Virus record (IMG/VR): IMGVR_UViG_2606217100_000005
Length of the DNA: 21,957 bases
Reading direction: 5' to 3' (one strand)
DNA from: a virus
Lineage: Duplodnaviria > Heunggongvirae > Uroviricota > Caudoviricetes
Each line of letters opens with the position of its first letter. The stretch's first letter is position 1. The notes below the pieces were generated by a model. That model searched no databases, had not been told where the DNA came from, and saw only the letters and a program-made list of their open reading frames with translations. This document shows positions 3,616-21,918 of the stretch, in pieces. Both the position numbers and the translations under genes were made by a program.

Positions 3616-4508
3616 TTTAATACCTCTTTGTTTACTGGGGTTAATATCTGAGATGGTAGTTCTGAAAGATTCTCTTGTTCAAGTATATGTTGAAAGCTTT
3701 TATTCATCATTATGATGTTAAAAATCTCATTTACTATTAGTAGGTTGGTTTTTATGAATTTTGAGTTGTTATAAACAGATTTATGTTCAGCGATACTATT
3801 TTCATAAAGCTCAATCAACTCCTCTGCAGTCATCCTTTTTGATGGTTTGTGATAATAAAATCCGGCTGCTTTTGCACCTTTATTCCCAACTGTTCTTTGA
3901 TTTAGAATGTGTTTTATCTTTATAATGTCCCGACTTTTTATTAATTTTTTATCATATGCTTCGGTAAGAATATCTTGTGCTTCCTCAGTTTCACATCTTG
4001 CAAATTGCACTGCGAGATACAGAGGCAAATTACCCCGTTCGACTGCTGAGAGAAGTTTATGCTCTCCCTTATCAAGTAGCATATTAATACTGCTCACCCA
4101 GTTCGATGAATATCCAGTAATCTCACTTATTTCGGAGTCTGAAAGTCCTCTGATTTTCATGTCTTTAATCACCTGTAATAACTCATTAGAACGTGGTCTT
4201 CTCCTTGCAATGTTTTCAACTAAACTCATAACGTAAGCATCTTCTTCTGATACATCTCTTATAATTGCTGGAATAATAGTTTCACCTAATGCAACGAGAG
4301 CCTCTATTCTCCCTTGACCACAAATTAAAGCATATTTGAAATCGCCTTCATCAATAGCTCTTACGCTTATAGGCTTGCTTAATCCTCTTTTTTTTATGCT
4401 TTCCTTTATTTCTTCATGCACTACCTTATTTCTTGTTCGTGGGTTAAGAAATTTTATTTTTGCAATCTCAATTTGAATTATTGGGAATTCATTTTTTTCA
4501 GGCAGCAT
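3612..4508 (-). CDS. ParB/Spo0J-like protein with central HTH (paralog A), 298 aa
   Basis: N-terminus IIQIEIAKIKFLNPRTRNK...SKPISVRAIDEGDFKYALICGQGRIEALVALGETIIPAIIRDVSEED follows the ParB N-domain pattern; followed by an HTH-like segment GLSDSEISEITGYSSNWV. Overlaps the recombinase gene by 11 nt. Confidence 0.7.
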   Translation of the reverse strand: MLPEKNEFPIIQIEIAKIKFLNPRTRNKVVHEEIKESIKKRGLSKPISVRAIDEGDFKYALICGQGRIEALVALGETIIPAIIRDVSEEDAYVMSLVENIARRRPRSNELLQVIKDMKIRGLSDSEISEITGYSSNWVSSINMLLDKGEHKLLSAVERGNLPLYLAVQFARCETEEAQDILTEAYDKKLIKSRDIIKIKHILNQRTVGNKGAKAAGFYYHKPSKRMTAEELIELYENSIAEHKSVYNNSKFIKTNLLIVNEIFNIIMMNKSFQHILEQENLSELPSQILTPVNKEVLK

Positions 4509-6054
4509 ATAGTTCCCTCACTTTCATGCGAGTAATAATTTGTAGAAGTTTATCAAGATTATCAAATCTATAGAGATCTAATCGAATGTTGTTTGTTTCC
4601 GTCATGCACATTTTATTATATTCGTTTTCAATCTTTGGTATGATATAAAAATCAAGAGGTGAAATATTTTGTGAATTCATTCGTATAACAATTGTTATGT
4701 CTGCTTTCTGTGAGTTATCAAACCGGACTTTCCATCTAAGTTTACCTGATTTCATATGTATGCATTTAGTAACAAGGACGGAAATTAAAAACTCATCATT
4801 GATGTAAAGCATTGGGGCATATTTATACTCGTCTATATGACAGTTACTTTTTAAAATTTCACCCTTAAAATCCTCAATTATCTCTGAGTAAAATGATCTT
4901 AGTGCTTCATTTATTTTGAGATAGCTGTAATCATGTTCTGGCTTATAACCAATCAAAGTATATGCTCTTAAAAGACCACCAAATCGGGTTCTATAAACAG
5001 AAGATGAAGGGCCTGTATCATCTTCATCAATGATAAAGCCTGATAGTTTTCCATTAGATTCTAATTTTTGTTTTAGTTTTTCTAATAGATCTTCATTAGT
5101 CAAATGAATGGATCGGAGCTGAATTATTTCTTGAGCTTTATTGTATTTTTTCTTTGAAATAATAGGTTTATATGCCTTGTCACATCTAACCCATTCATGT
5201 TTGGGGTTTTTTACAAGCCTACTTTTTAATTTAGATGAGGTTTTGTTATATATGTTGTTTCCAATATATTTTTCATTTGTCAAAATTTGATGTATTTTTG
5301 CACGAGTCCATAATGTTCCATTTTCTGCAGGTATGTTCTGTTCATTTAATCTCTCAGCAATAATGAATTCTGGGACGTTATTATCTATAAAGAGATCATA
5401 TATTCTATTTACAATTTTTATTTCATTTTTTGGTCCCGGAATTAATATTACCCTATCTGTTTGAATACTCTTTCTTTTGCGGAAACTCAATATTTCTTTA
5501 GCTATGCCATTTTCGTCTACTAAAAGACGTCTCAGCCCATAACCAGCCATACCGCCTTGATGATAACCAAGCTTTATTAAATTTACTTGCCCTATAAATA
5601 CCTTTTCAGATAGATTCCTGCTGTGATATGCAGCACTAGATCTTTTTATATTCAGTATAACAGAGGACTCTAAAGGGAAATCTTTAGTGGGTATAGGTTC
5701 GGAACAATATATAAGATCTACACCATTTCTCTCAAATAGAAAGGAATAATATGCCGCTTCATCACTATTTTGAAAACGACCAAAACGGCTCACATCATAA
5801 AATAATACAGCCTGTATATCTATTTTCTTTTGTTCTACATCGCTAAGTAACTGCTGCAAAGAATGCCTGCCTACGATACTGACTCCGCTCTTACCTGCAT
5901 CATCGTAGGTATAAGCGATTTCCATATTGTTCTTTTCAGCATAATCTTTGATATATTCGGACTGATTATGTAAAGAATATTGCTGATGGTCGGTAGACAT
6001 CCTCAAGTACTGCGCGACCCTAACTCTATGATTTTTTTCATTTTCGCTAGCCAT
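4498..6054 (-). CDS. Large serine recombinase (resolvase/integrase family), 518 aa
   Basis: N-terminal VAQYLRMSTDHQ motif (catalytic serine context of resolvase-family enzymes) followed by a long C-terminal extension typical of large serine recombinases; ATG start with GAGG upstream. Confidence 0.85.
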   Translation of the reverse strand: MASENEKNHRVRVAQYLRMSTDHQQYSLHNQSEYIKDYAEKNNMEIAYTYDDAGKSGVSIVGRHSLQQLLSDVEQKKIDIQAVLFYDVSRFGRFQNSDEAAYYSFLFERNGVDLIYCSEPIPTKDFPLESSVILNIKRSSAAYHSRNLSEKVFIGQVNLIKLGYHQGGMAGYGLRRLLVDENGIAKEILSFRKRKSIQTDRVILIPGPKNEIKIVNRIYDLFIDNNVPEFIIAERLNEQNIPAENGTLWTRAKIHQILTNEKYIGNNIYNKTSSKLKSRLVKNPKHEWVRCDKAYKPIISKKKYNKAQEIIQLRSIHLTNEDLLEKLKQKLESNGKLSGFIIDEDDTGPSSSVYRTRFGGLLRAYTLIGYKPEHDYSYLKINEALRSFYSEIIEDFKGEILKSNCHIDEYKYAPMLYINDEFLISVLVTKCIHMKSGKLRWKVRFDNSQKADITIVIRMNSQNISPLDFYIIPKIENEYNKMCMTETNNIRLDLYRFDNLDKLLQIITRMKVRELYAA

Positions 6055-6336
6055 GCACGAAACCTCATGGATGATTCAATACAATGTAGTGGATAAAATT
6101 GATCAAATTTTAACCGAATTCAACTGTTTTATCATTGATTAGAGCGAATTTGGTAGATCTTCGAGGTGTATGATAATCGAGAAGAGATGTGAATTATTTA
6201 GCTGATATGACCGACAGCTTTCGTTATGTGGACTCAATGTCCCCATTTGTAAATGGCTATGCTTAGTCCACATAGGTTAATGGTGTGATTATTAATTCTT
6301 TAACTAAATCAAGATAGTTAATCCATCATGGGAGAG

Positions 6337-7566
6337 TTATGCGGCAATAACTTTGCATTTTTGAGACGAAACATAGTCACTCCACCATTGCATGAGAACC
6401 ACCCGTTCAGTGAGATACTCTGCACGATTGTAGGCTGCAATTATTTCATCTTTCTTCGAGTGGGCAAGGGCGGCTTCTAAGACATCAGTCCTAAACTTGC
6501 CAGACTCCTCAGCAGCCGTTCTAGCAATGGATCGCATACCGTGAGCTACAAGCTCACCTCCGAAACCCATACGGATTATGGCCGCATTAGCTGTTTGTTC
6601 ATGCATGTGATTGAGTGGAGCTTTGATACTGGGGAACACCCACTCTCTATGCCCGCTGATGACTTTCATTAAATCCAAAACTCGCAAAGCTTCTTTGCTC
6701 AGTGGAACTTTGTGAGGCTTCTTCATTTTCATAAACTCCGCCGGGATGTTCCACATGCCAGTTTCAATATCAATATCTGACCATCTTGTGCGAACAGCTT
6801 CACCTGGGCGAACCCATGTGAGAAGTTGCCACTCAATCAGTAGCCTTGTTTCCAAACGGATAGAAGCATTGTTTAGAGCAACCAAGAAGCGAGGGAGTTC
6901 GGAAGGGGGTAATGCTGGCATATTCTGTTTTTTTGGCTTGCTGAACCGTTGCCCCAGGTTGTCTGCCGGGTTGAATTCTATGAGTTCTTCTGTTGCTGCA
7001 TAGCGGAAAATTTCATTCAGGCGGGATATGATGCGGCGAAGTGTTTCAAGGACACCTCGTTTTTCTATGGGTTCTAAATGCTGTTTAAGCATTTTAGGGC
7101 GAATCTCCTTAATTGGGGTATCACCCAATGTGGAAAAGATATTTCTCTCTAGGCTTCGCCAGATGTCGTTAGCATGATCTTGGGAGATGCCTGACGTTTT
7201 GACTTTCTCATCAAGCCACTTCTTGGCTACTGCTTGAAATGTATGTTCCGTGGCATCTTTCAGTGCATTGGCTTTTTGGTTGTTATGAACTTGGGGGTCT
7301 ATACCATTTGTAAGCAACGACAAGTATTCATCACGTAAAGCTCGTGCCTTCGCAAGTGTAAGGTGAGGATAGGTTCCTAAGCTCACCTTAGTTCGCTTTT
7401 TGGTCACAGGCACTGCATATCTGAAATACCAATTTTTCTTCCCTCCCTTCGCCAGGGGAGCGATTCGCAACAGCAAACCATCGCCGTCAAAAAGGTTAAC
7501 CTCTTTTTCGGCAGGTTTGGTGCTTTTGATTTCAGTGTCAGTGAGCTTCTTAGCGATTTTGGCCAT
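6337..7566 (-). CDS. Tyrosine integrase, P4/CP4-57 (IntA-like) family, 409 aa; ORF extends to 7647 but the ATG at 7566 is preferred
   Basis: N-terminus MAKIAKKLTDTEIKSTKP...LFDGDGLLLRIAP is the P4-type arm-binding domain; C-terminal HGMRSIARTAA...AYNRAEYL holds the catalytic tyrosine region. Lies next to the ssrA 3'-end repeat in the same orientation as int follows ssrA in E. coli K-12. Confidence 0.85.
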   Translation of the reverse strand: MAKIAKKLTDTEIKSTKPAEKEVNLFDGDGLLLRIAPLAKGGKKNWYFRYAVPVTKKRTKVSLGTYPHLTLAKARALRDEYLSLLTNGIDPQVHNNQKANALKDATEHTFQAVAKKWLDEKVKTSGISQDHANDIWRSLERNIFSTLGDTPIKEIRPKMLKQHLEPIEKRGVLETLRRIISRLNEIFRYAATEELIEFNPADNLGQRFSKPKKQNMPALPPSELPRFLVALNNASIRLETRLLIEWQLLTWVRPGEAVRTRWSDIDIETGMWNIPAEFMKMKKPHKVPLSKEALRVLDLMKVISGHREWVFPSIKAPLNHMHEQTANAAIIRMGFGGELVAHGMRSIARTAAEESGKFRTDVLEAALAHSKKDEIIAAYNRAEYLTERVVLMQWWSDYVSSQKCKVIAA

Positions 7567-7663
7567 GTTTGGGACCCTCGATTTTAGGACCCATCTTCGT
7601 GGGTCCCATTCAGGGTGCCATAACTCGTAGTTCTCAGCAATTCTCACTAGACTACAATAGACG

Positions 7664-7731: not shown

Positions 7732-7763
7732 TTGGTGGAGCTGGCGGGAGTTGAACCCGTGTC
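7732..7763 (-). repeat. 32-bp direct repeat of the ssrA 3' end (att core), 31/32 identical to 21556-21587
   Basis: TGGTGGAGCTGGCGGGAGTTGAACCCGtGTCC here versus TGGTGGAGCTGGCGGGAGTTGAACCCGcGTCC at the true ssrA 3' end; sequence diverges after this point. Confidence 0.9.
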
Positions 7764-7973
7764 CATAGTTATGTAATTCATTGAATTTAAATAGCCAAAT
7801 ATTGTTGATTTTACAAGCGGCTCTTTTGCGGAACTTTTTCTGTCCTGTTACTGTCTTACTATTTATTTTAAAATAGTTTCATTTGGAATTAATGGTTTGT
7901 GGTTGCAGTTTCGGAGATAGATAGCATTTTTTGCTAAAAAATATTTTTATAAAAAATGTGTGTAAAAATGATG

Positions 7974-7996: not shown

Positions 7997-8190
7997 GGCT
8001 TTGTGATAAACCAGATTGTTTTGGATAAGTTTGTTTTTTTGTGATTTGTCAACAATATTATTGACTCTTGTTACTAAAGTGAGTGTTTTCTAAGGTGGTC
8101 AGAAGTTGTCCCTTCATGTAATCTTATTAGCCATAAAGAACAAAAAATAATTCAACATCATTACCAACTATTTGTAAGATAAGGTTTTTA

Positions 8191-9006
8191 ATGTTGCAAC
8201 CAGCAAAAAAAGCATCAGTTATTAGCGCGCGGCTAACTAAATACCTCAAAGATGGAGTGAGGATTGATGACTTTAGCTTTAGAAGGATGTTACGTGAGAT
8301 TGAAGCACTTAGAGATCCTGTCTCTGAGGACTATCTTTTAGCGTTGGTCTATGGTGCACATGGCCAAGTGAATGAGGCGATAGGCTTCTTTGAGCGTTCC
8401 TTGCAGGTATGCCATAATGAGGTTGTTGCAAAGAATTTTCTTGTTTTCTTGTCAGATTACGGTACGTTGAAGAAAAGCTTTGAAACAAGCATTAAGCTTG
8501 CTGAAAGCTTCATATCCCCGTTTATTTATCTTCAAGCTTATGAAAACTCCCTCTTTATGGGGAAGATGGCGTTGGCGGAGAAGTATTTCCAGTCATACTC
8601 TAAATTGTTCGGAGATAAGGAGCCTGAAAAAATGGACAACAATCTTGATGAAGTTGTTTCCCAGGTCGAATCCTTTAAGCAACGTGCCGATCTTTCTGGT
8701 TTAGAATATGAACTTATTTTCAATAATGTAGCCAATGTCATGGATTCTCAGAAGGTTCATCTTTCGGGAATGCGTTTTTATAATATTTCGGAAGAGAAAG
8801 TGAATGCGATTGTATTCATGACAAAGTCTTCTGATGCTGAACAAATCGCTGATATGAATATTGAGCTTGCTTTTTCAATGGCTGAGCACGATTGTTTAGT
8901 CGGTAAAGATTTTGCTGTTTGGTTTGAATGTAAAGACACACATATTGAGCAGAATGCTATCTCCGAATTAGGTCTGATTACCCGGAGGGTTGCACATGCC
9001 GGTTAA
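8191..9006 (+). CDS. Hypothetical protein, 271 aa (no family recognised)
   Basis: Long ORF with ATG start and AAGG upstream; predicted helical, AT-rich; its last 11 nt overlap the next ORF. Confidence 0.6.
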   Translation: MLQPAKKASVISARLTKYLKDGVRIDDFSFRRMLREIEALRDPVSEDYLLALVYGAHGQVNEAIGFFERSLQVCHNEVVAKNFLVFLSDYGTLKKSFETSIKLAESFISPFIYLQAYENSLFMGKMALAEKYFQSYSKLFGDKEPEKMDNNLDEVVSQVESFKQRADLSGLEYELIFNNVANVMDSQKVHLSGMRFYNISEEKVNAIVFMTKSSDAEQIADMNIELAFSMAEHDCLVGKDFAVWFECKDTHIEQNAISELGLITRRVAHAG

Positions 9007-9379
9007 TAGTCAAGATTTTCTCGGTTTTGCAAAAGACTGTCATCAACGTAATGACGAAATCGGCTATCGAAATGCTATAGCAAGATCCTACTATGGCGCT
9101 TACCATCATGTCTTGCCTTGTATGGTAAACGGGCCGAAAGACAGTCATCAGGGGCTAATCAATTATTTGCAGGGCGATGCTTCAAGAGGAAGTGAAGTAT
9201 ATGAAGCTAGATATCTAAAAGGGATTAGTTTTATCCTGAGTCAACTTAAAGCTCAGAGGATTGTTGCAGACTATCGACTTGATCAATCGGTCACTTCTAA
9301 ACAGTCTGAAGTTGCGATTCTAACAACTGAGAGGCTCTTTGCTAAGTGTACGGAAATGCTTAAATCGAGAGCCTCCTAA
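8996..9379 (+). CDS. Hypothetical protein, 127 aa from ATG 8996 (ORF opens at TTG 8990); contains an Rx6H motif (RSYYGAYH)
   Basis: GGAGGG lies 6 nt upstream of ATG 8996. The Rx4-6H pattern is the HEPN signature, but that assignment is speculative. Ends at an intrinsic terminator. Confidence 0.55.
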   Translation: MPVNSQDFLGFAKDCHQRNDEIGYRNAIARSYYGAYHHVLPCMVNGPKDSHQGLINYLQGDASRGSEVYEARYLKGISFILSQLKAQRIVADYRLDQSVTSKQSEVAILTTERLFAKCTEMLKSRAS

Positions 9380-9385
9380 TTGATA

Positions 9386-9411
9386 AAGCCACTTAAGTGG
9401 CTTTTTTTGTG
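9386..9411. terminator. Bidirectional intrinsic terminator (AAGCCACTTAAGTGGCTT + T-run)
   Basis: 18-bp palindrome followed by TTTTTGTG on the plus strand; the stop codon of the minus-strand int gene lies inside the stem. Confidence 0.7.
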
Positions 9412-10565
9412 ATATTGCTGGTCGTATTACCGTCATATTCCTTTAAATATGAACCATAATGACGAAATAACATTTCCGGCCCTTTATGCCCCATTTGAGC
9501 TGCAAGCCAAAACAGGTTTGCTCCCCGGCTGATATGGCGGGTGGCGAATGTATGCCTAGTTTGATATGGATTTCTGTAACGAATACCTGCTTTTCGCAAT
9601 GTTGGCACCCATGCTTTTTTCCTGATTGCATCAGCACTTGCCCAAGGCTTATTGGTCTTTGGATCTTCAAAGACAGTAGTATCCTTCATGAATGTAAATG
9701 GCTTCTGATTTATCAGCGCCAACATTGCCTCTTCTGTCAGTTCAACTTTCCGAGTACCTGCTTTTGTCTTTGTCCCTTTGATAACACCGACAACACTTGC
9801 GCTCTGGACATGGGCAGTTTTTCCAACAAAGTCGATATCACGCCATCGAAGGGCACATAATTCAGAACTACGCAGGCCTGTATGTATAGCGAACCGGAAC
9901 AGATTTTCCCATTGTTTGTTTCCGGCTGCTGCTAGTAATGCATCAACTTCTGCTGGTGATAGCGGATCAACTACGTAGCTGCTTTCTGCTTCTGACTTAT
10001 CACTTTGGTAGCGCGAAGCTGTTACTAACGATACGGGGTTAATTTGAAGTACCCCATCGGTCACGGCTTCATCAAGTGCTGACCGCAGGAAAGATAACTG
10101 GTTGCGAATTGTTTTTAAGGTCGTTTTCTGATTTTGAATCCACGCTTTCAGGGTTGCTGGTGTTAATTCACTTGCAGGGCAAATGTGAAGTGAGGCTAAC
10201 GCACTACGGCATTTTTTATAGCCACCAATCGTAGAGGGTGAAAGTTTTCTTGTTTCGCAGATTTCAAGATATTCGTCCAGGTACATCTTTACCGTTTTGC
10301 CTGCAGCAGCATTACCAAAAATTTTCAAACGAGCAGAACGGGGAAAATATTCTGCATAAATGAATGTTCCCCTTTCGATCTTATTATGGATTTCGCCGAG
10401 TGTACGCTCGGCGTATTTAATGTTCTTTGGTGTTACTTCCAGATTGGAAAGCGGCTCACGACATCTAACTCCTTTGTAGGTGAAAGTTATATTGATCGTT
10501 TCTCCCTGGCGGTGTTTCCTGATTGTTACGCCGCGCGGTAGTTTGAGCAGTTTTGTCTGGCCCAT
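9393..10565 (-). CDS. Tyrosine integrase, lambdoid type, 390 aa
   Basis: N-terminus MGQTKLLKLPRGVTIRKHRQGETINITFTYKGVRCRE (arm-binding domain of lambdoid integrases); C-terminal RHTFATRHISRGANLFWLAAQMGHKGPEMLFRHYGSY has the catalytic R/H/Y region. Confidence 0.85.
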   Translation of the reverse strand: MGQTKLLKLPRGVTIRKHRQGETINITFTYKGVRCREPLSNLEVTPKNIKYAERTLGEIHNKIERGTFIYAEYFPRSARLKIFGNAAAGKTVKMYLDEYLEICETRKLSPSTIGGYKKCRSALASLHICPASELTPATLKAWIQNQKTTLKTIRNQLSFLRSALDEAVTDGVLQINPVSLVTASRYQSDKSEAESSYVVDPLSPAEVDALLAAAGNKQWENLFRFAIHTGLRSSELCALRWRDIDFVGKTAHVQSASVVGVIKGTKTKAGTRKVELTEEAMLALINQKPFTFMKDTTVFEDPKTNKPWASADAIRKKAWVPTLRKAGIRYRNPYQTRHTFATRHISRGANLFWLAAQMGHKGPEMLFRHYGSYLKEYDGNTTSNITKKAT

Positions 10566-10773: not shown

Positions 10774-11640
10774 TTAACGAATAGTGTCGTTACTTTGAAG
10801 TACAGCAAATGCCATTAATACTTCTAAAGTATATCTTCTATAAAATTTAACAAAACCAACATAGAAAACATAGACGAAGAAAAAGCTAAGCATTATTGAA
10901 AGTAAACTATAAAGATAATCACTATGAGTACATAATCGATAAATAAAGGTTGGAACTGATACCCAAAATGAAATTATAAAGATTAAACATATGTTTCTGC
11001 AAAAACCATATAATGCAACATAGTTTTGAATTTTTGTTTGATGTTGTTTTGAAAACTCATAAACATAATGATATGCCAATCTGAAGAGATCATCATCAAG
11101 TCCGTTTTTATCTTGTAATAATTGGCGATTTGTTATGAACTTTTTCTCATAACCTTCTTTGATCATTAACCATGTTGTATTAGCTAAATGAAATGGTAGA
11201 GATTGAGAATAACATAGTTTTTGTGTTATAAAATCCCATAGTATTATTGGGCATAATACGCATTTGATTATGCGATTCTTTATTTTTGTTTTTTTATCAG
11301 CGCTTCTCTCATCGCATGATGGGCTACAAATGCTTTCTGAGGTATCTATCAATTTTTTAAATAGATATTTGGAAGGATATCCTAATTCTTTATTCATGTA
11401 TTTTTCGATAAAAAATGCTGACGTGATAGAAATAAAATGTCCAGCTATATAAGATATAATAACTATTGAAGCGTAGTTCAAAATGCCAAAGATTTGACTT
11501 TGACCTCTGAGCAATTCACTTAAGTCAATAACAATATCTAGATCGAATGTCAAACCACAGAAATACATTAATAGGATAAAAAAACCACCTGGTATTAAAT
11601 ATCCAAGAAAGTCATAGAATGAGAATGGATTTTGATTCAT
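10774..11640 (-). CDS. Polytopic membrane protein, 288 aa from ATG 11640 (ORF opens at TTG 11664)
   Basis: At least four hydrophobic helix-length segments (FLGYLIPGGFFILLMYFCGLTF, ILNYASIVIISYIAGHFISITSAFFI, ICLIFIISFWVSVPTFI, LLSIMLSFFFVYVFYVGFV). GGAGAG 5 nt upstream of the ATG. Strongly AT-rich compared with flanking prophage genes. Confidence 0.6.
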   Translation of the reverse strand: MNQNPFSFYDFLGYLIPGGFFILLMYFCGLTFDLDIVIDLSELLRGQSQIFGILNYASIVIISYIAGHFISITSAFFIEKYMNKELGYPSKYLFKKLIDTSESICSPSCDERSADKKTKIKNRIIKCVLCPIILWDFITQKLCYSQSLPFHLANTTWLMIKEGYEKKFITNRQLLQDKNGLDDDLFRLAYHYVYEFSKQHQTKIQNYVALYGFCRNICLIFIISFWVSVPTFIYRLCTHSDYLYSLLSIMLSFFFVYVFYVGFVKFYRRYTLEVLMAFAVLQSNDTIR

Positions 11641-11748
11641 TGTTGCTCTCCAATAATTTTTCAATTTGTAATATAACCTATATCTATATGTTAATAAATT
11701 ACTTATATGTTCTTTTATGGCAGAGTTTGAATTCGTACGTGCTGATTT

Positions 11749-16610: not shown

Positions 16611-16915
16611 TTCTGCCATTCCGGGACGTTACACTGTTCAGGCACCTTATAAAGCGGGTGCCGGGATTGGCGTCCTGGAAATGTTATCGGCGATATATGA
16701 CGCGCCAGCGTCTTTTTTATCGTCTGCGTCTGCGCACACCCAAATTATGGTGGGCTGGACGGGGGCACCGAAAGGTGCGCCGGTTTCCGATAACGCCGGT
16801 TACGCCAACCCCGTTCAGTTCACCACCAGCGAAATTGGCGTTTCCGGTGGTGAAGGTAATTCACTGTTATCGGAGGCTGCCATCATGGCTACTGTCCCAG
16901 CCCTCACTCGTCTGA

Positions 16916-17395
16916 ATGATGAAGACTTACATAAACTCAGTTATTGCACCGCCAGATATTCCGGCAGGCTTCGTGGCTGTTTTCAACAGTGATGAGGCAT
17001 CGTGGCATCTCGTTGAAGATCATCGGGGTAAAACGGTTTATGACGTAGCGTCAGGGGACGCGTTATTTATTTCTGAACTCGGTCCGTTACCGGAAAATGT
17101 TACCTGGTTATCGCCGGAAGGGGAGTTTCAGAAGTGGAACGGCACAGCCTGGGTGAAAGATGCAGAAGCAGAAAAACTGTTCCGGATCCGGGAGGCGGAA
17201 GAAACAAAAAACAGCCTGATGCAGGTAGCCAGTGAGCATATTGCGCCACTTCAGGATGCTGTAGATCTGGAAATCGCAACGGAGGAAGAAACCTCATTGC
17301 TGGAAGCCTGGAAAAAGTATCGGGTGTTGCTGAACCGTGTTGATACATCAACTGCACCGGATATTGAGTGGCCAGAAGAACCAGACACCGTGTAA
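16916..17395 (+). CDS. Tail fibre assembly protein (lambda Tfa family), N-terminally shortened, 159 aa
   Basis: From [52 protein letters not shown]... to the end it closely follows lambda Tfa as recalled. The first 9 residues are unrelated and no tail fibre gene precedes it. Confidence 0.8.
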
Positions 17396-17464: not shown

Positions 17465-18283
<819 letters not shown>

Positions 18284-18644
18284 TCATTGCAAGGGCTCAC
18301 AACCAGTAGTGTTGAGAAAACCATCGGAGAAATGAGGCTAAGCCTTTGAATTTACATAGTACAAAAAAGATACTTTTCCTCATAATGTGAGCTAATTTTA
18401 TGTTTCGTTTGATGATTGGACCGGTCTCGAAAACCGTAGACACATAGTATGCGTTAATTTATGAACAAACTACTTGTCTGCTGTTTTTCTGTCATTAGTC
18501 GTATATAGAATGATTCTCTATGCCTAACAAAGCATCACCAGTGCTAGATTACGTTGTAGTCACTGTTTAAATATCCAGATAAAACATTTCCTTCTGGGTT
18601 GAATGAGTGATAAAGTTTCACCCATTAGACCCCTTGGAGGAATT

Positions 18645-20078
18645 ATGTCTGAATTTGAAGTGTTGGCACAGCATCTGCTGAAGGAAGCCGAGGCGGAAGA
18701 AAAGCTGCGACAGGAAAATGATAAAAAGCTTATCGAGAAAGTGCTGGAAATCTATGATCAGAAGTATGTGGCTGAATTACTGAGAAAAGTCGGAAAAAAT
18801 GAGTGGAGCCGTGAAACCATTAACCGCTGGATTAATGGCAAGTGTTTACCAAAATCGTTGACTTCAGTAGAAGAGTCTCTTCTGCGTAAGATGCTACCAG
18901 AACCACCTGCAAACCATCCGGAATATGCTTTCCGCTTCATTGACTTATTTGCTGGAATTGGAGGGATACGGAAAGGTTTTGAGGCCATTGGAGGCCAGTG
19001 TGTTTTTACCAGTGAATGGAATAAAGATGCTGTGCGTACATACAAGGCCAACTGGTTTAACGATGAACAGGTGCATAAATTCAATCTCGATATTCGGGAA
19101 GTCACGCTGAGTGATAAAACCGATGTATTGGAAACGGATGCTTATGCATATATTGATGAGCATGTGCCGGATCATGATGTGCTTCTTGCGGGGTTCCCGT
19201 GCCAGCCATTTAGCCTTGCTGGTGTTAGTAAGAAAAACTCACTTGGTCGTGCGCATGGTTTTGAATGTGAAGCACAAGGAACACTTTTTTTTGACGTGGC
19301 ACGTATTATACGAGCAAAAAAACCGGCAATTTTTGTGCTGGAAAATGTCAAAAATCTGAAGAGCCATGATAAGGGTAAAACTTTCAAAGTCATTATGGAG
19401 ACCCTTGACGAGCTGGGCTACGAAGTTGCCGATGCTGCAGAAATGGGAAAAAACGATCCAAAGATTATCGATGGGAAGCATTTTTTGCCTCAGCATCGTG
19501 AACGCATTGTTCTGGTCGGATTTAGACGAGATCTGAATATTCACAAGGGGTTTACCTTGCGTGATATCAGTCGTTTTTATCCGGAACACCGCCCATCATT
19601 TGGTGAATTGCTGGAGCCTGTAGTCGACAGTAAATATATACTTACGCCAAAACTATGGGAGTACCTTTATAACTACGCCAAAAAGCATGCAGCCAAGGGG
19701 AATGGTTTTGGCTTTGGGTTGGTCAATCCTGAGAATAAGGAAAGCATTGCACGCACACTTTCTGCCAGATATCACAAAGACGGATCAGAAATTCTTATTG
19801 ATCGTGGTTGGGATATGGCAACGGGAGAGGCTGACTTTATGAATGAGAGTAATCAGGCTCGTCGACCACGCAGGCTGACTCCCCGAGAGTGCGCACGCCT
19901 TATGGGATTTGAAAAACCTGGAGGGAAACCATTCCGTATTCCGGTTTCAGATACTCAGTCATATCGGCAGTTCGGTAACTCAGTTGTGGTGCCAGTATTT
20001 GAAGCTGTTGCCAGACTTCTGGAACCCTATATCCTCAAAGCTGTTTCTGCTGATGCTGGTAAGACTGGGCAGCCTTGA
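18645..20078 (+). CDS. DNA (cytosine-5) methyltransferase, Dcm/M.EcoRII family (CCWGG-type), 477 aa from ATG 18645 (ORF opens at 18603)
   Basis: Motif [19 protein letters not shown], motif [19 protein letters not shown], and a C-terminal [10 protein letters not shown]; extensive similarity to E. coli Dcm as recalled. GGAGG 5 nt upstream of ATG 18645. Confidence 0.9.
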
Positions 20079-20112
20079 GAACATCTCCCGGCCTTTTAAG
20101 CCGGGAGTCAGC

Positions 20113-21327
20113 CTATGATAGTTCAGCGTAAAGCTCTATCAGCTCAGTAATGAATGCTCCGAGCGTTATTAATTCTTCTCTAACTGCTTCTGGGTATTTT
20201 TTATGTAAAGTTGATGGTACAACGAGTCTGACACCCGCATCTTTCATTTCTCGGTATTGTGCTGAAGAAACACCTTCTTGCAGTGTAAATAAATGTACCT
20301 GATGGATTTTATCTGCTTCATTCAGTATCTGACGCCAGCGATCTTTGCAGGTGGTCTTTACTGCCAGCATACGTAAGTTTTCTACAGGAAATTCAACGTT
20401 ATGATATGCCTCTGCTGAAGGAAACAGGAAATCTGGTTTTTTATTACCTTCAGTAACTGCCTGAGTGGAGAAATGCCGTAGTCCGTGCTCGATAAAAAGC
20501 TTCTCTAGGTGAAGTTCAAGTGATTTGCCTGCCCTTGATTTACGTCGATTACTGACAGAGTTGGCTAATGCAATAAACTCATCTACAGAATCGAATCCTT
20601 TCTTAATAATATCAAGAACATGTAATTCCTCGACGAGTAGAAAAATATCATACTCGACACGCCGACGGTCAATCAGTTGCTCATCTGGATCCTTGGAGTT
20701 TTTAGCATAATGGCCAGCAGCATATTGAATAATTTCGTTTCCAGAAGGAAAACGCTTCTTCCAGTCTTCAGGAATAACATATTTATGATTTACTGGAGTT
20801 TGCTGAAGAGACAATCCGCCCAAAATTTGTCCGGCAGGGCCGGAAATTAGGGTTCCAGGTATGATTTCGCCAATAGCAGACTCGATGATATCCTCTTCAT
20901 CGGGATTGACGCAGACCCATATATCTACCTCGGAACAGTCAGTGTTCTGTTCGTTTAACCTGAAAGCAAGAATTGTGAGGGCTCCTGTATTTTCAGGGTT
21001 CTGTAATGGACTTCCTCTCCCCCAGCGCGTAATTCTTTTTTCGTTTCGGGTCTTACCAAAATAACGGTTGTTGTAATAAATTGCGCGTGCTTGGGTATCA
21101 GGGCAATCATGGGATGATACATGCGCAGTAAGGAAGACTGAAGGGTTCAGTTCGCGAGTATGATTGATAGATGGAAAAAGCTTTTCAACGATATTTGAGG
21201 GGATATAAAGTCCGACCTGATGGCCACCTGTTGCGCCTGTGTCGTTTGCAGAAAGGCGTTTGATGTAGATAAAGTAATTCCCGCTTGCGATATCAAGCAG
21301 CCAGTTATGAAAAACCGACATATACAT
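20113..21327 (-). CDS. EcoRII-like type IIE restriction endonuclease, 402-404 aa
   Basis: Convergent with the Dcm-family methyltransferase; length and N-terminus (M)SVFHNWLL...YIKRLSANDTGATGGHQVGLYIPS match EcoRII as recalled. Confidence 0.75.
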   Translation of the reverse strand: MYMSVFHNWLLDIASGNYFIYIKRLSANDTGATGGHQVGLYIPSNIVEKLFPSINHTRELNPSVFLTAHVSSHDCPDTQARAIYYNNRYFGKTRNEKRITRWGRGSPLQNPENTGALTILAFRLNEQNTDCSEVDIWVCVNPDEEDIIESAIGEIIPGTLISGPAGQILGGLSLQQTPVNHKYVIPEDWKKRFPSGNEIIQYAAGHYAKNSKDPDEQLIDRRRVEYDIFLLVEELHVLDIIKKGFDSVDEFIALANSVSNRRKSRAGKSLELHLEKLFIEHGLRHFSTQAVTEGNKKPDFLFPSAEAYHNVEFPVENLRMLAVKTTCKDRWRQILNEADKIHQVHLFTLQEGVSSAQYREMKDAGVRLVVPSTLHKKYPEAVREELITLGAFITELIELYAELS

Positions 21328-21555: not shown

Positions 21556-21918
21556 TGGTGGAGCTGGCGGGAGTTGAACCCGCGTCCGAAATTCCTACAT
21601 CCTCGGTACTACATGCTTAGTCAGTCTTTACATTCGCTTGCCAGCTGCGGACGGACACGCCACTAACAAACTAGCCTGATTAAGTTTTAACGCTTCAACC
21701 CCAGGCAGGGCTTCCACGCGATCTCTTTTGGGTTTGACCTCTCTTGATCCCCGTCCTAAGAGCGGAGGCTAGGGAGAGAGGGCTCTAAGCAGGTTATTAA
21801 GCTGCTAAAGCGTAGTTTTCGTCGTTTGCGACTATTTTTTGCGGCTTTTTACGAGGCCAACCGCCCCTCGGCATGCACCTTGGGTTTCGCAAATCCCGTC
21901 GAATCCAGAATCAGCCCC
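21556..21918 (-). ncRNA. ssrA: tmRNA (SsrA), complete, 363 nt
   Basis: Reverse complement begins GGGGCTGATTCTGGATTCGACGGGATTTGCGAAACCC, contains the tag-peptide reading frame GCAAACGACGAAAACTACGCTTTAGCAGCTTAA (ANDENYALAA), and ends ...GGTTCAACTCCCGCCAGCTCCACCA; matches E. coli ssrA from memory. Confidence 0.97.

What the first reader, a model, noticed from the sequence alone, without database searches (positions are those of the whole stretch)
8191..9379. Overlapping two-gene cargo (271 aa + 127 aa) between the att repeat and the lambdoid integrase
Seen: two plus-strand ORFs with an 11-nt overlap (ATG 8996 inside the end of the first gene), each with an RBS, closed by a strong bidirectional terminator. 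They are AT-rich and oppose the orientation of int. Neither protein was recognised. The second contains RSYYGAYH, which fits the Rx4-6H HEPN signature, but this is speculative. Established: the int-att junction of prophages is a recurrent slot for accessory and defence cargo. Inference: candidate two-component toxin/abortive-infection or anti-phage pair.
Basis: partly seen in the sequence, partly recalled or inferred. Interest (0 to 1): 0.65.

Follow-up and report, generated by a model that had tools for sequence, protein, structure and literature searches.

The report
TPR-partner plus HEPN prophage cargo pair
Two overlapping, uncharacterised genes at the edge of an E. coli prophage encode a small HEPN-type (RNase-like) protein and a repeat-containing partner that always travel together in phage "accessory gene" slots, which makes them a good but untested candidate for a toxin-antitoxin-like anti-phage module.

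Summary
Gene A (8191-9006, 271 aa) and gene B (8996-9379, 127 aa) overlap by 11 nt. They sit between an ssrA att repeat (7732-7764) and a convergent lambdoid integrase, and a hairpin/T-run follows them.

A is a TPR array plus a conserved C-terminal alpha/beta domain with no database match. A sits directly upstream of B in all 14 distinct intact arrangements examined, in seven or more genera. Hosts include lambda-like, Mu-like and P2-like (pro)phages and bare chromosome. A TPR-less "mini-A" plus B also exists.

The window's prophage remnant also carries PD-T4-3 and an EcoRII R-M system. No defence, Pfam or NCBIfam model names the pair, and no held paper mentions it.

Best reading: a mobile HEPN-effector/protein-inhibitor module (TA-like, probably abortive infection) with a TPR sensor. 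It is a new variant of a known kind, and its function is untested.

The parts
7732..7764 (.). att repeat: a copy of the 3' end of ssrA that bounds the lambdoid prophage remnant. It also abuts the next island's P4-type integrase.
   Evidence: 7733-7759 is identical to 21556-21582. The alignment shows the match running 7732-7764 with one mismatch. The tmRNA gene is at 21556-21918, minus strand.
8094..8126 (+). Conserved promoter-like block about 65-95 nt upstream of gene A (TTGGAA-like ... TCATGTAATCTTA).
   Evidence: This is the only conserved stretch in an alignment of the 200-nt upstream regions from E. coli, Mixta, Citrobacter, Pseudocitrobacter and Enterobacter. Promoter function is inferred; the consensus scanner did not call it.
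8191..9006 (+). Gene A, 271 aa. It has an N-terminal TPR array (aa 1-146, nt 8191-8628), then two helices, then a beta-beta-alpha-beta domain (aa ~150-250, nt 8638-8940) carrying the conserved D215 / D221-M-N223 / L226-A227 / W244-F245 motif. Proposed role: sensor plus inhibitor (antitoxin-like partner).
   Evidence: - AF2 model pLDDT 85.6.
- No Pfam, NCBIfam or PADLOC family; PHROG phrog_17809, function unknown.
- 86 full-length family members among 50%-identity representatives.
- Conserved columns.
8996..9379 (+). Gene B, 127 aa: an AF0298/UPF0332-type (PF05168, class II) HEPN domain. Proposed role: effector. Predicted site residues are R88-D92-Y93 (nt 9257-9274) and H51 (nt 9146-9148).
   Evidence: - AF2 model pLDDT 92.
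- Profile hit to 9xbd at E 2.7e-5, with motif correspondence.
- 24 of 30 homologues hit Pfam HEPN weakly.
- E21, R25, R30, Y32, Y33, H51, R88, D92 and Y93 are invariant in 47 of 47 sequences.
- PHROG phrog_5176, function unknown.
9385..9411 (+). Intrinsic-terminator-like hairpin plus T-run closing the A-B operon. It overlaps the 3' end of int.
   Evidence: 8-bp stem, 4 G-C pairs, loop of 4, TTTTGTG tail; sequence.
9393..10565 (-). Lambdoid tyrosine integrase, convergent with A-B (context, not part of the module).
   Evidence: Pfam Arm-DNA-bind_2 plus Phage_integrase. It is present in 412 of 5426 complete E. coli genomes, whereas the A-B region is present in 44.

Best explanation
A-B is a self-contained, horizontally mobile two-gene operon (a 'moron' with its own promoter-like element and terminator).

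- **Gene B** makes a small HEPN-domain effector of the AF0298-like subtype. It is predicted to act as a dimeric, metal-independent RNase. [quoted passage not shown]
- **Gene A**, translated just upstream and probably translationally coupled, is its protein partner. Its conserved C-terminal alpha/beta domain is proposed to bind B and hold it inactive, like an antitoxin. Its N-terminal TPR array is proposed to be a protein-binding sensor or regulator.
- **Proposed trigger.** During infection by another phage, or on loss or turnover of A, B is released and cleaves RNA. This stops growth or aborts the infection.

Shown here: gene structure, the folds, strict pairing, mobility, hotspot locations, and purifying selection. 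Inferred: A-B binding, RNase activity, toxicity, the trigger, and the defence phenotype.
For: 1. **B is a HEPN domain with a fully conserved polar constellation.**
   - R88, D92, Y93, H51 and R30 are invariant in 47 of 47 sequences.
[quoted passage not shown] That is where Anantharaman et al. 2013 (PMC3710099, sections 6-7) place the alternative active site of AF0298-like HEPN-T and AbiV proteins.
2. **The pairing is strict.**
   - An A-family ORF lies immediately upstream of B in all 14 distinct intact arrangements examined. Two cut A-B pairs occur besides them: Proteus L019, where both genes are decayed, and L030, where an ISL3 element cuts A.
   - The junction runs from a 20-nt overlap to a 20-nt gap, usually with a Shine-Dalgarno sequence inside A.
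   - The divergences of A and B correlate (Spearman 0.91), and A is the more diverged in 91 of 91 comparisons.
3. **The C-terminal domain of A is the core partner.** A metagenome contig encodes that domain alone (122 aa, no TPR in frame), overlapping a B homologue by 4 nt. These are classic toxin-antitoxin sizes.
4. **The module is mobile and sits in accessory-gene slots.**
   - The att-int junction of lambdoid prophages, with two different integrase types and at least three chromosomal sites.
   - Between Mor/GemA and the lysozyme gene in a Mu-like prophage.
   - Between the portal/ogr genes and replication gene A in a P2-like Vibrio phage. This is the locus Rousset et al. 2022 define as the P2 defence hotspot (PMC9122126).
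   - Alone in the chromosome of Mixta and Gilliamella.
5. **The E. coli slot is a variable hotspot.** Prophages with the same integrase carry other cargo there.
6. **Known defence genes are neighbours.** The same prophage remnant carries PD-T4-3 and an EcoRII R-M system.
7. **Both genes are under purifying selection**.
8. **There is precedent.** Prophage-encoded HEPN abortive-infection proteins are known: HepS (PMC13043305), Tha (PMC11087260) and the AbiV RNase (bioRxiv 10.1101/2024.05.05.592566).
Against: - No experiment or published phenotype was found.
- B lacks the canonical Rx4-6H. HEPNs of this class (PF05168, class II) had no biochemical study in 2020, and it was stated to be unproven that they form toxin-antitoxin systems (PMC7641770). 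B could therefore be non-catalytic.
- A has no detectable DNA-binding domain of the kind typical of type II antitoxins, and at 271 aa it is large for an antitoxin.
- Neither protein hits a defence-system model convincingly. The only PADLOC match is HEPN_IX at E 0.0013 over 40 residues.
- No A-B complex was modelled.
- In contig L030 an ISL3 insertion cuts off the 5' end of A while B stays intact. If A is not expressed there, B is not constitutively lethal. That would still fit a HepS-like effector that is inactive by default.
Confidence: 0.55

Rival explanations
1. The molecular logic is the same (HEPN toxin plus protein antitoxin), but the biological role is addiction or stabilisation of the prophage or island (post-segregational killing) rather than defence against other phages.
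For: - The antitoxin-first, overlapping two-gene layout and the sizes of the mini version fit.
- The location at the very end of the element, next to int, is where loss by excision would matter.
- The window's prophage is a 13.8-kb remnant that has nevertheless kept the pair.
Against: - The pair also sits mid-genome in Mu-like and P2-like phages and in a P2 defence hotspot.
- It is also found in bare chromosomal sites of Gilliamella and Mixta, where there is nothing to stabilise.
- A TPR sensor-like domain is not needed for simple addiction.
- The two roles are not mutually exclusive.
Confidence: 0.2
2. B is a non-catalytic HEPN that binds a nucleotide, an RNA or a protein, and A-B is a regulatory or adaptor complex with no toxin. 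For example, it could modulate host or phage processes, or act as a phage-encoded counter-defence factor.
For: - There is no histidine in the canonical motif.
- Class II HEPNs are biochemically uncharacterised (PMC7641770).
- Anantharaman et al. note that HEPNs lacking the motif may be binding domains (PMC3710099).
- TPR proteins are generic protein-protein adaptors.
- Phage accessory slots also hold anti-defence genes (general knowledge).
- A solo B-like ORF sits inside the tail/baseplate module of Yersinia phage YP3.
Against: - Nine polar or aromatic residues, including R88, D92, Y93, H51 and R30, are invariant across 47 diverse sequences. That is more than a scaffold usually needs, and they lie where the alternative HEPN active site is predicted.
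- Stable chromosomal copies outside phages argue against a purely phage-serving counter-defence role.
Confidence: 0.17
3. A-B is a diverged class II HEPN/MNT module. Under this reading the C-terminal domain of A is a degenerate or atypical minimal nucleotidyltransferase that modifies B chemically (for example AMPylation of Y93), as in HepT/MntA type VII systems.
For: - B belongs to the HEPN class whose usual neighbour is an MNT (PMC7641770).
- The invariant Y93 next to R88 parallels the conserved, modifiable tyrosine noted for class II HEPNs.
- The alpha-beta-turn-beta-X-beta order of A's C-terminal domain resembles the nucleotidyltransferase core topology as I recall it (own knowledge).
- There is a weak profile hit to RsfS, which I recall as an NTase-fold protein: E 0.011.
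Against: - The GSx10DxD motif is absent. G[SG]x9-13Dx[DE] occurs in only 5 of 86 family members and is not conserved.
- The RsfS hit weakens to E 0.16 with the domain-only profile.
- There is no Pfam NTP_transf_2 hit in any of 58 members.
- The conserved residues (D-M-N, L-A, W-F) sit on a helix and the last strand, not where NTase carboxylates lie.
Confidence: 0.06
4. The ORFs are chance reading frames or decaying pseudogenes in AT-rich junk at the prophage end.
For: The region is AT-rich and RefSeq calls both products hypothetical.
Against: - Full-length homologues occur across Enterobacterales, Aeromonas, Gilliamella, Vibrio phage and a Thiotrichaceae MAG.
- dN/dS is well below 1.
- The structure models are confident.
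Confidence: 0.01

Closest known systems
Class II HEPN/MNT modules (PF05168 HEPN + PF01909 MNT) and the AF0298/UPF0332 HEPN-T family (PDB 2hsb)
   Same: - B shares the sRAYY block on helix 2, the conserved histidine in the helix 2/3 insert, and R-x3-D-Y at the end of helix 3.
- The layout is also the same: a two-gene operon with the HEPN gene second.
   Different: - The partner is not an MNT. It has no GSx10DxD motif and no NTP_transf_2 hit.
- Instead it is a 250-270-aa protein with a TPR array and an unassigned alpha/beta domain.
- The module lives in gammaproteobacterial phages rather than in thermophile or archaeal chromosomes.
HepT/MntA (type VII toxin-antitoxin, class I HEPN/MNT; SO_3166/SO_3165)
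   Same: - A small HEPN protein is encoded downstream of, and overlapping, its neutralising partner.
- A conserved tyrosine sits next to the arginine.
   Different: There is no RX4HXY motif and no nucleotidyltransferase partner, so AMPylation is unlikely. A carries an extra TPR array.
HepS of Gifsy-1 (PMC13043305) and Tha of S. aureus prophages (PMC11087260)
   Same: These are prophage-encoded small HEPN proteins in accessory-gene slots. They act by abortive infection and are triggered by proteins of the incoming phage.
   Different: HepS and Tha are single-gene systems, HepS with a canonical Rx4-6H, and they sense the trigger themselves. Here a separate, obligatory TPR partner is present and the HEPN motif is non-canonical.
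AbiV (Lactococcus; PDB 9bj5/9bj7; bioRxiv 10.1101/2024.05.05.592566)
   Same: - AbiV is a HEPN abortive-infection effector grouped with AF0298-like HEPN-T because it shares the alternative conserved histidine (PMC3710099).
- It is reported to be an RNase held in check by a cognate antitoxin.
- It is a weak structural match to B.
   Different: - The AbiV antitoxin is reported to be an RNA; here the partner is a protein.
- AbiV is 201 aa.
- No AbiV model in PADLOC matches B.
RnlA-RnlB / LsoA-LsoB
   Different: The toxins are large multi-domain proteins with a canonical motif, the antitoxin is encoded downstream, and there is no TPR.

Membership tests
HEPN superfamily | All-alpha HEPN fold: a four-helix core with an insert between helices 2 and 3. 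| tested here: met
   - AF2 model pLDDT 92, with helices at 5-17, 21-42, 51-59, 71-93 and 101-126.
HEPN superfamily | Rx4-6H motif at the end of helix 3 (canonical RNase site). | tested here: not met
   The homologous position holds R88-I-V-A-D92-Y93, invariant and without a histidine. The literal R-x6-H (R30..H37) lies on helix 2 and is not the homologous site.
AF0298-like HEPN-T / UPF0332 (Pfam PF05168, 'class II' HEPN) | The arginine of the motif is kept, the histidine is replaced, and a second strongly conserved histidine comes from the insert between helices 2 and 3 (PMC3710099 sections 6-7). | tested here: met
   R88 and H51 are invariant in 47 of 47 sequences. H51 starts the short helix 51-59 between helices 2 and 3. 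It aligns with the 'SH' of 9xbd.
AF0298-like HEPN-T / UPF0332 (Pfam PF05168, 'class II' HEPN) | Significant match to the Pfam HEPN model. | tested here: inconclusive
   - The window protein itself gives no Pfam hit at E<=1.
- 24 of 30 homologues match PF05168, best E 2e-5, and one has a precomputed PF05168 hit.
- JGI names some homologues 'UPF0332 family'.
HepT/MntA type VII toxin-antitoxin (class I HEPN/MNT) | RX4HXY motif in the HEPN toxin. | tested here: not met
HEPN/MNT modules (class I or II) | The adjacent partner is a minimal nucleotidyltransferase with GSx10DxD (PF01909). | tested here: not met
   There is no NTP_transf_2 hit in any of 58 A-family members. The motif regex matches 5 of 86 members at non-conserved positions.
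Type II-like toxin-antitoxin pair | Two small adjacent co-directional genes, co-inherited, with the antitoxin usually first. | tested here: met
   The mini-A (122 aa) plus B (133 aa) pair is.
Type II-like toxin-antitoxin pair | The toxin arrests growth and the partner neutralises it by binding. | not testable with these tools
Known anti-phage systems (PADLOC-DB v2.0.0) | Match to the component models of a named system. | tested here: not met
   A has none. B matches only HEPN_IX at E 0.0013 over residues 74-113, and an orphan methyltransferase at E 0.0089.
TPR proteins | Tandem helix-turn-helix repeats forming a solenoid. | tested here: met
   - Residues 4-146 form eight helices.
- The family profile hits consensus TPR and PPR proteins at E 1e-10 to 1e-7.
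- Single-sequence Pfam TPR hits fall below the gathering score.

The most novel reading that the evidence does not exclude
A-B is a previously unnamed anti-phage abortive-infection system.

- A TPR sensor protein clamps an AF0298-type (class II) HEPN through a new alpha/beta inhibitory domain.
- It releases the HEPN on binding a phage protein.
- The HEPN then cleaves RNA through the non-canonical R88/H51 site.

This would give the first functional and mechanistic assignment to the large, biochemically unstudied class II HEPN group, in a tractable E. coli (CFT073) background.
Probability: 0.3. Interest if true: 0.7.

Novelty: new variant of a known kind. Interest (0 to 1): 0.55.

Why it matters
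- **HEPN biology.** HEPN proteins are among the commonest effectors in bacterial conflict systems. The PF05168/AF0298-like class lacks the canonical catalytic histidine, and in the held literature it has no demonstrated activity (PMC7641770).
- **A tractable test case.** This pair offers a compact version of that class in E. coli, including the model uropathogen CFT073. It has a new kind of partner: a TPR array plus an unassigned domain, in place of the usual nucleotidyltransferase.
- **If it defends against phages.** It would add a system missing from the catalogue searched here (PADLOC-DB v2.0.0). It would also show how a sensor module can be bolted onto a minimal toxin-inhibitor core; a TPR-less mini version exists in nature.
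- **Hotspot mapping.** The att-int junction of ssrA lambdoid prophages is shown to be a cargo-swapping hotspot comparable to the P2 and P4 hotspots.

Tried and rejected
- **Single-sequence searches.** Pfam, NCBIfam, PADLOC and PDB searches of both proteins gave nothing usable.
- **Spurious ubiquitin hits.** The B profile's top PDB hits were poly-ubiquitin. These are artefacts of a short 'R-x-x-S-D-Y' word repeated in tandem ubiquitins, each repeat scoring about 4 bits, and were rejected.
- **Locus retrieval with A alignments.** The search for related loci failed with both A-family alignments because no stretch was conserved enough. The B alignment was used instead.
- **AFDB Foldseek.** The library was unavailable.
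- **C-terminal domain of A.**
  - A domain-only profile against the PDB gave only designed repeats, UPF0352 and a weak RsfS hit at E 0.16. No fold assignment resulted.
  - A profile search of the big protein database with that domain returned one protein.
- **Truncated A variants.**
  - P0054 is cut by a contig end and P0060 comes from a frameshifted assembly, so neither is informative.
  - The 94-aa P0153 is an ISL3-truncated full-length A, not a mini version.
- **Literature searches.** Searches by accession, by peptide strings, and for TPR+HEPN systems, UPF0332/COG1895 and PDB codes 9xbc/9xbd found nothing on this pair. The DefensePredictor supplements are stored truncated, so absence there is not proof.
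- **Sensor versus binding domain.** The idea that the TPR half evolves much faster than the C-terminal domain was not borne out: mean identity is 26.7% against 29.4%.
Full report
**1. What is in the sequence**

The window is an E. coli ssrA region. The tmRNA gene lies at 21556-21918 on the minus strand. Its last 27 nt recur exactly at 7733-7759, with none expected by chance (alignment). The repeat and the gene bracket a 13.8-kb lambdoid prophage remnant.

That remnant encodes:
- an integrase at 9393-10565, minus strand (Arm-DNA-bind_2 plus Phage_integrase);
- YfdP/Q/R-type genes;
- an S24 repressor, a CII-like gene and an Ash-like gene;
- a tail-fibre assembly gene.

A second island with a P4-type integrase (6337-7647) starts immediately left of the repeat.

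Two plus-strand ORFs lie between the repeat and the lambdoid integrase. A is 8191-9006 (271 aa) and B is 8996-9379 (127 aa, ATG). They overlap by 11 nt. B has a good Shine-Dalgarno sequence (GGAGGG) and A a weaker one.

A hairpin plus T-run at 9385-9411 follows B and overlaps the integrase stop codon. It is a convincing terminator for the plus strand only. GC content is 36-40%.

RefSeq annotates the same two CDS as hypothetical proteins.

**2.

*Homologues.* B has at least 50 homologue clusters. Most are 125-135 aa, from Enterobacterales and beyond. A few are named 'UPF0332 family' or 'HEPN domain-containing' by their sources.

*Sequence evidence.*
- A 30-sequence profile hits PDB 9xbd/9xbc ('HEPN domain-containing protein') at E 2.7e-5 and 1.4e-4, and AF0298 (2hsb).
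- The higher-ranked ubiquitin hits are repeat artefacts.
- 24 of 30 homologues weakly match Pfam HEPN PF05168.

*Structure evidence.*
- The AF2 model is confident, with pLDDT 92.
- Foldseek agrees.

*Where the motifs sit.*
- The alignment to 9xbd places RSYYGAYH (R30..H37) opposite 'RAYYAMFY' on helix 2.
- The invariant H51 falls opposite the family's 'SH'.
- R88-IVA-D92-Y93 falls opposite 'RNRSDY' at the end of helix 3.

*Conservation.* Across 47 family members E21, R25, R30, Y32, Y33, H51, R88, D92 and Y93 are invariant. H37 is conserved in 46 of 47.

*What the literature says about this subtype.* Anantharaman et al. [quoted passage not shown]
- the histidine of Rx4-6H is absent;
- the arginine is kept;
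- a second conserved histidine, from the insert between helices 2 and 3, could form an alternative active site.

Yao et al. 2020 (PMC7641770) call the PF05168 group 'class II'. They note that it lacks RX4HXY but keeps a conserved tyrosine. They also state that no biochemistry existed for it.

B is therefore a HEPN of the least-understood subtype. Its predicted site is R88 plus H51, with D92 and Y93, rather than R30/H37.

**3. Gene A**

*Database searches.* A has no Pfam, NCBIfam or PADLOC family. Its only hits are sub-threshold TPR matches at residues 48-76. It belongs to PHROG 17809, function unknown.

*Family size.* An exhaustive HMM search of 1.84 billion representatives found 138 hits. About half are generic multi-repeat TPR proteins. 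Eighty-six are full-length relatives of 230-300 aa.

*Structure.* The AF2 model (pLDDT 85.6) shows three parts:
- two helices at 152-187;
- a beta(191-199)-beta(204-211)-alpha(216-231)-beta(241-247) unit.

*Conservation.* The best-conserved columns of the whole family lie in this last unit: D215, D221-M222-N223, L226, A227, A231, K239, W244 and F245.

*Fold assignment.* The unit could not be assigned to a known fold.
- A domain-only profile finds nothing credible in the PDB.
- The weak RsfS hit (E 0.011, falling to 0.16) plus the alpha-beta-turn-beta-X-beta order is only a lead towards a nucleotidyltransferase-like fold.
- The MNT signature GSx10DxD is not conserved: it occurs in 5 of 86 members.
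- No member hits NTP_transf_2.

**4. The two genes are one module**

*Adjacency.* An A-family ORF lies immediately upstream of B, on the same strand, in every B locus recovered with both genes intact. There are 14 distinct arrangements; near-identical copies bring the count of loci to 20.

These cover E. coli, Citrobacter, Enterobacter, Pseudocitrobacter, Mixta, Serratia, Xenorhabdus, Aeromonas, Gilliamella, a Thiotrichaceae MAG, a Klebsiella phage and a Vibrio phage. A Proteus locus holds decayed remains of both genes.

*Junction.* It ranges from a 20-nt overlap to a 20-nt gap.

*Co-evolution.*
- Pairwise identities of A and B correlate (Spearman 0.91).
- A is always the more diverged: mean identity 25% against 43%, in 91 of 91 pairs.
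- Both genes are under purifying selection.

*A minimal version.* One metagenome contig encodes only the C-terminal domain of A (122 aa, with no TPR in frame and an unrelated gene upstream). It overlaps a 133-aa B homologue by 4 nt. Two other contigs also encode the domain alone. The C-terminal domain is therefore the core partner of the HEPN, and the TPR array is an add-on.

*Shared upstream element.* A short block about 65-95 nt upstream of A (window 8094-8126) is conserved between genera while its surroundings are not. This suggests a shared promoter or operator.

**5. Context**

*Prevalence in E. coli.* The integrase occurs in 412 of 5426 complete genomes. The A-B region occurs in only 44, among them the uropathogen CFT073 (C_RS15245/C_RS15240).

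*Other cargo in the same slot.* Prophages with the same integrase carry different genes there:
- ST131: one 259-aa ORF;
- NU14: three genes, including a STAS-like protein;
- O103:H2: a ParA-like protein plus two more genes.

The att-int junction is therefore a genuine cargo hotspot.

*Where the module sits elsewhere.*
- Beside a different, lambda-Arm-type integrase at other chromosomal sites.
- Between Mor/GemA and the lysozyme gene of a Mu-like prophage, and before a GH108 endolysin gene in Aeromonas.
- Between the portal/ogr genes and replication gene A of a P2-like Vibrio phage. This is the locus defined as the P2 defence hotspot (PMC9122126).
- In a Klebsiella phage.
- Alone between housekeeping genes in Mixta (murJ-flgN) and Gilliamella (frr-MFS).

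*Neighbours in the window.* The same prophage remnant carries PD-T4-3 (E 2.5e-140) and an EcoRII-type R-M pair.

**6. Mechanism**

The best-supported reading is a mobile effector/inhibitor module. B would be a HEPN RNase-type effector using a non-canonical site. A would hold it inactive through its C-terminal domain and use its TPR array to sense or regulate. The outcome would be growth arrest or abortive infection.

Shown: the folds, pairing, mobility, hotspot residence and purifying selection.

Inferred: binding, catalysis, toxicity and the trigger.

Main weaknesses:
- This HEPN subtype has no demonstrated activity.
- A has no DNA-binding domain.
- One contig (L030) carries an intact B behind an IS-truncated A. 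That would fit a default-off effector better than a constitutive toxin.

The rivals are:
- an addiction role for the same molecular machine;
- a non-catalytic adaptor or counter-defence role;
- a degenerate MNT-type modifying partner;
- chance ORFs, which the conservation data refute.

**7. Comparison and novelty**

B is a member of the AF0298-like HEPN-T/UPF0332 group. Fold and motif pattern are met; the Pfam threshold test is inconclusive.

The pair is not a HepT/MntA or class II HEPN/MNT module, because the partner is not an MNT. It matches no PADLOC v2 system.

No paper in the held library mentions these proteins, by accession or by peptide string. No TPR+HEPN two-gene system turned up.

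The nearest functional analogues are prophage HEPN abortive-infection proteins (HepS, Tha), AbiV and RnlAB/LsoAB.

I rate it a new variant of a known kind. It is of moderate interest, mainly because it offers a tractable entry into class II HEPN function and a natural example of a sensor domain added to a minimal toxin-inhibitor core.

Noticed in passing
window 17465-18238 (-): A 257-aa GIY-YIG-type protein is a full-length match to the anti-phage system PD-T4-3 (PADLOC PDLC04031, E 2.5e-140; Pfam LEM-3 GIY-YIG). It sits inside the same prophage remnant.
   Followed up: partly
window 18603-21327: An EcoRII-type restriction-modification pair lies directly next to the tmRNA gene. It consists of a C5-cytosine methyltransferase (18603-20078, +) and an EcoRII endonuclease (20113-21327, -).
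   Followed up: partly
window 10774-11664 (-): A very AT-rich (about 29% GC) ORF encodes a 296-aa hydrophobic protein between the xis-like ORF and yfdR. It belongs to PHROG 12528 (function unknown) and gives a weak PADLOC hit to Csx27 (E 1.4e-5). It is present in CFT073 and NU14 but replaced in the ST131 and O103:H2 relatives, so it may be a second variable cargo slot.
   Followed up: partly
window 16642-17352 (+): Rfam finds isrK (16642-16718), C4 antisense RNA (16743-16830) and IS009 (17154-17352), overlapping the Ash-like and tail-fibre-assembly ORFs.
   Followed up: no
window 4498-7647 (-): A second integrated element sits left of the att repeat. It has a P4-type tyrosine integrase (6337-7647) and a 518-aa serine recombinase (4498-6054), so this is a tandem island array at ssrA.
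   Followed up: partly
L022 1566-3436 (E. coli NU14); L021 2640-3419 (ST131); L023 1264-3186 (O103:H2): Alternative cargo sits in the same att-int slot behind the same integrase:
- NU14: a 303-aa ORF, a STAS-like 108-aa ORF and a 199-aa ORF.
- ST131: one 259-aa ORF.
- O103:H2: a ParA-like protein plus two ORFs.

None matches a PADLOC system beyond a weak PDC-M28B hit. All are candidate unknown accessory systems.
   Followed up: partly
L027 378-1144 (metagenome scaffold ERZ28616892): A natural 'mini' version of the module: a 122-aa protein equal to the C-terminal domain of A, without any TPR, overlaps a 133-aa B homologue by 4 nt. L029 and L028 also encode the domain alone.
   Followed up: yes
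L030 1128-3678: An ISL3 transposase insertion cuts off the 5' end of an A homologue while the downstream B homologue stays intact. This is relevant to whether B is toxic without A.
   Followed up: partly
L026 4001-4366 (Yersinia phage YP3): A solo B-like HEPN ORF (E 2e-18 to the B profile) has no A partner. It is embedded between a virion structural gene and a baseplate wedge gene.
   Followed up: no
L024 4001-4396 (Klebsiella phage ST405-OXA48phi1.3, MK416008): The deposited annotation splits the B homologue into two small ORFs, but the DNA has one intact 131-codon frame, preceded by an A homologue.
   Followed up: partly
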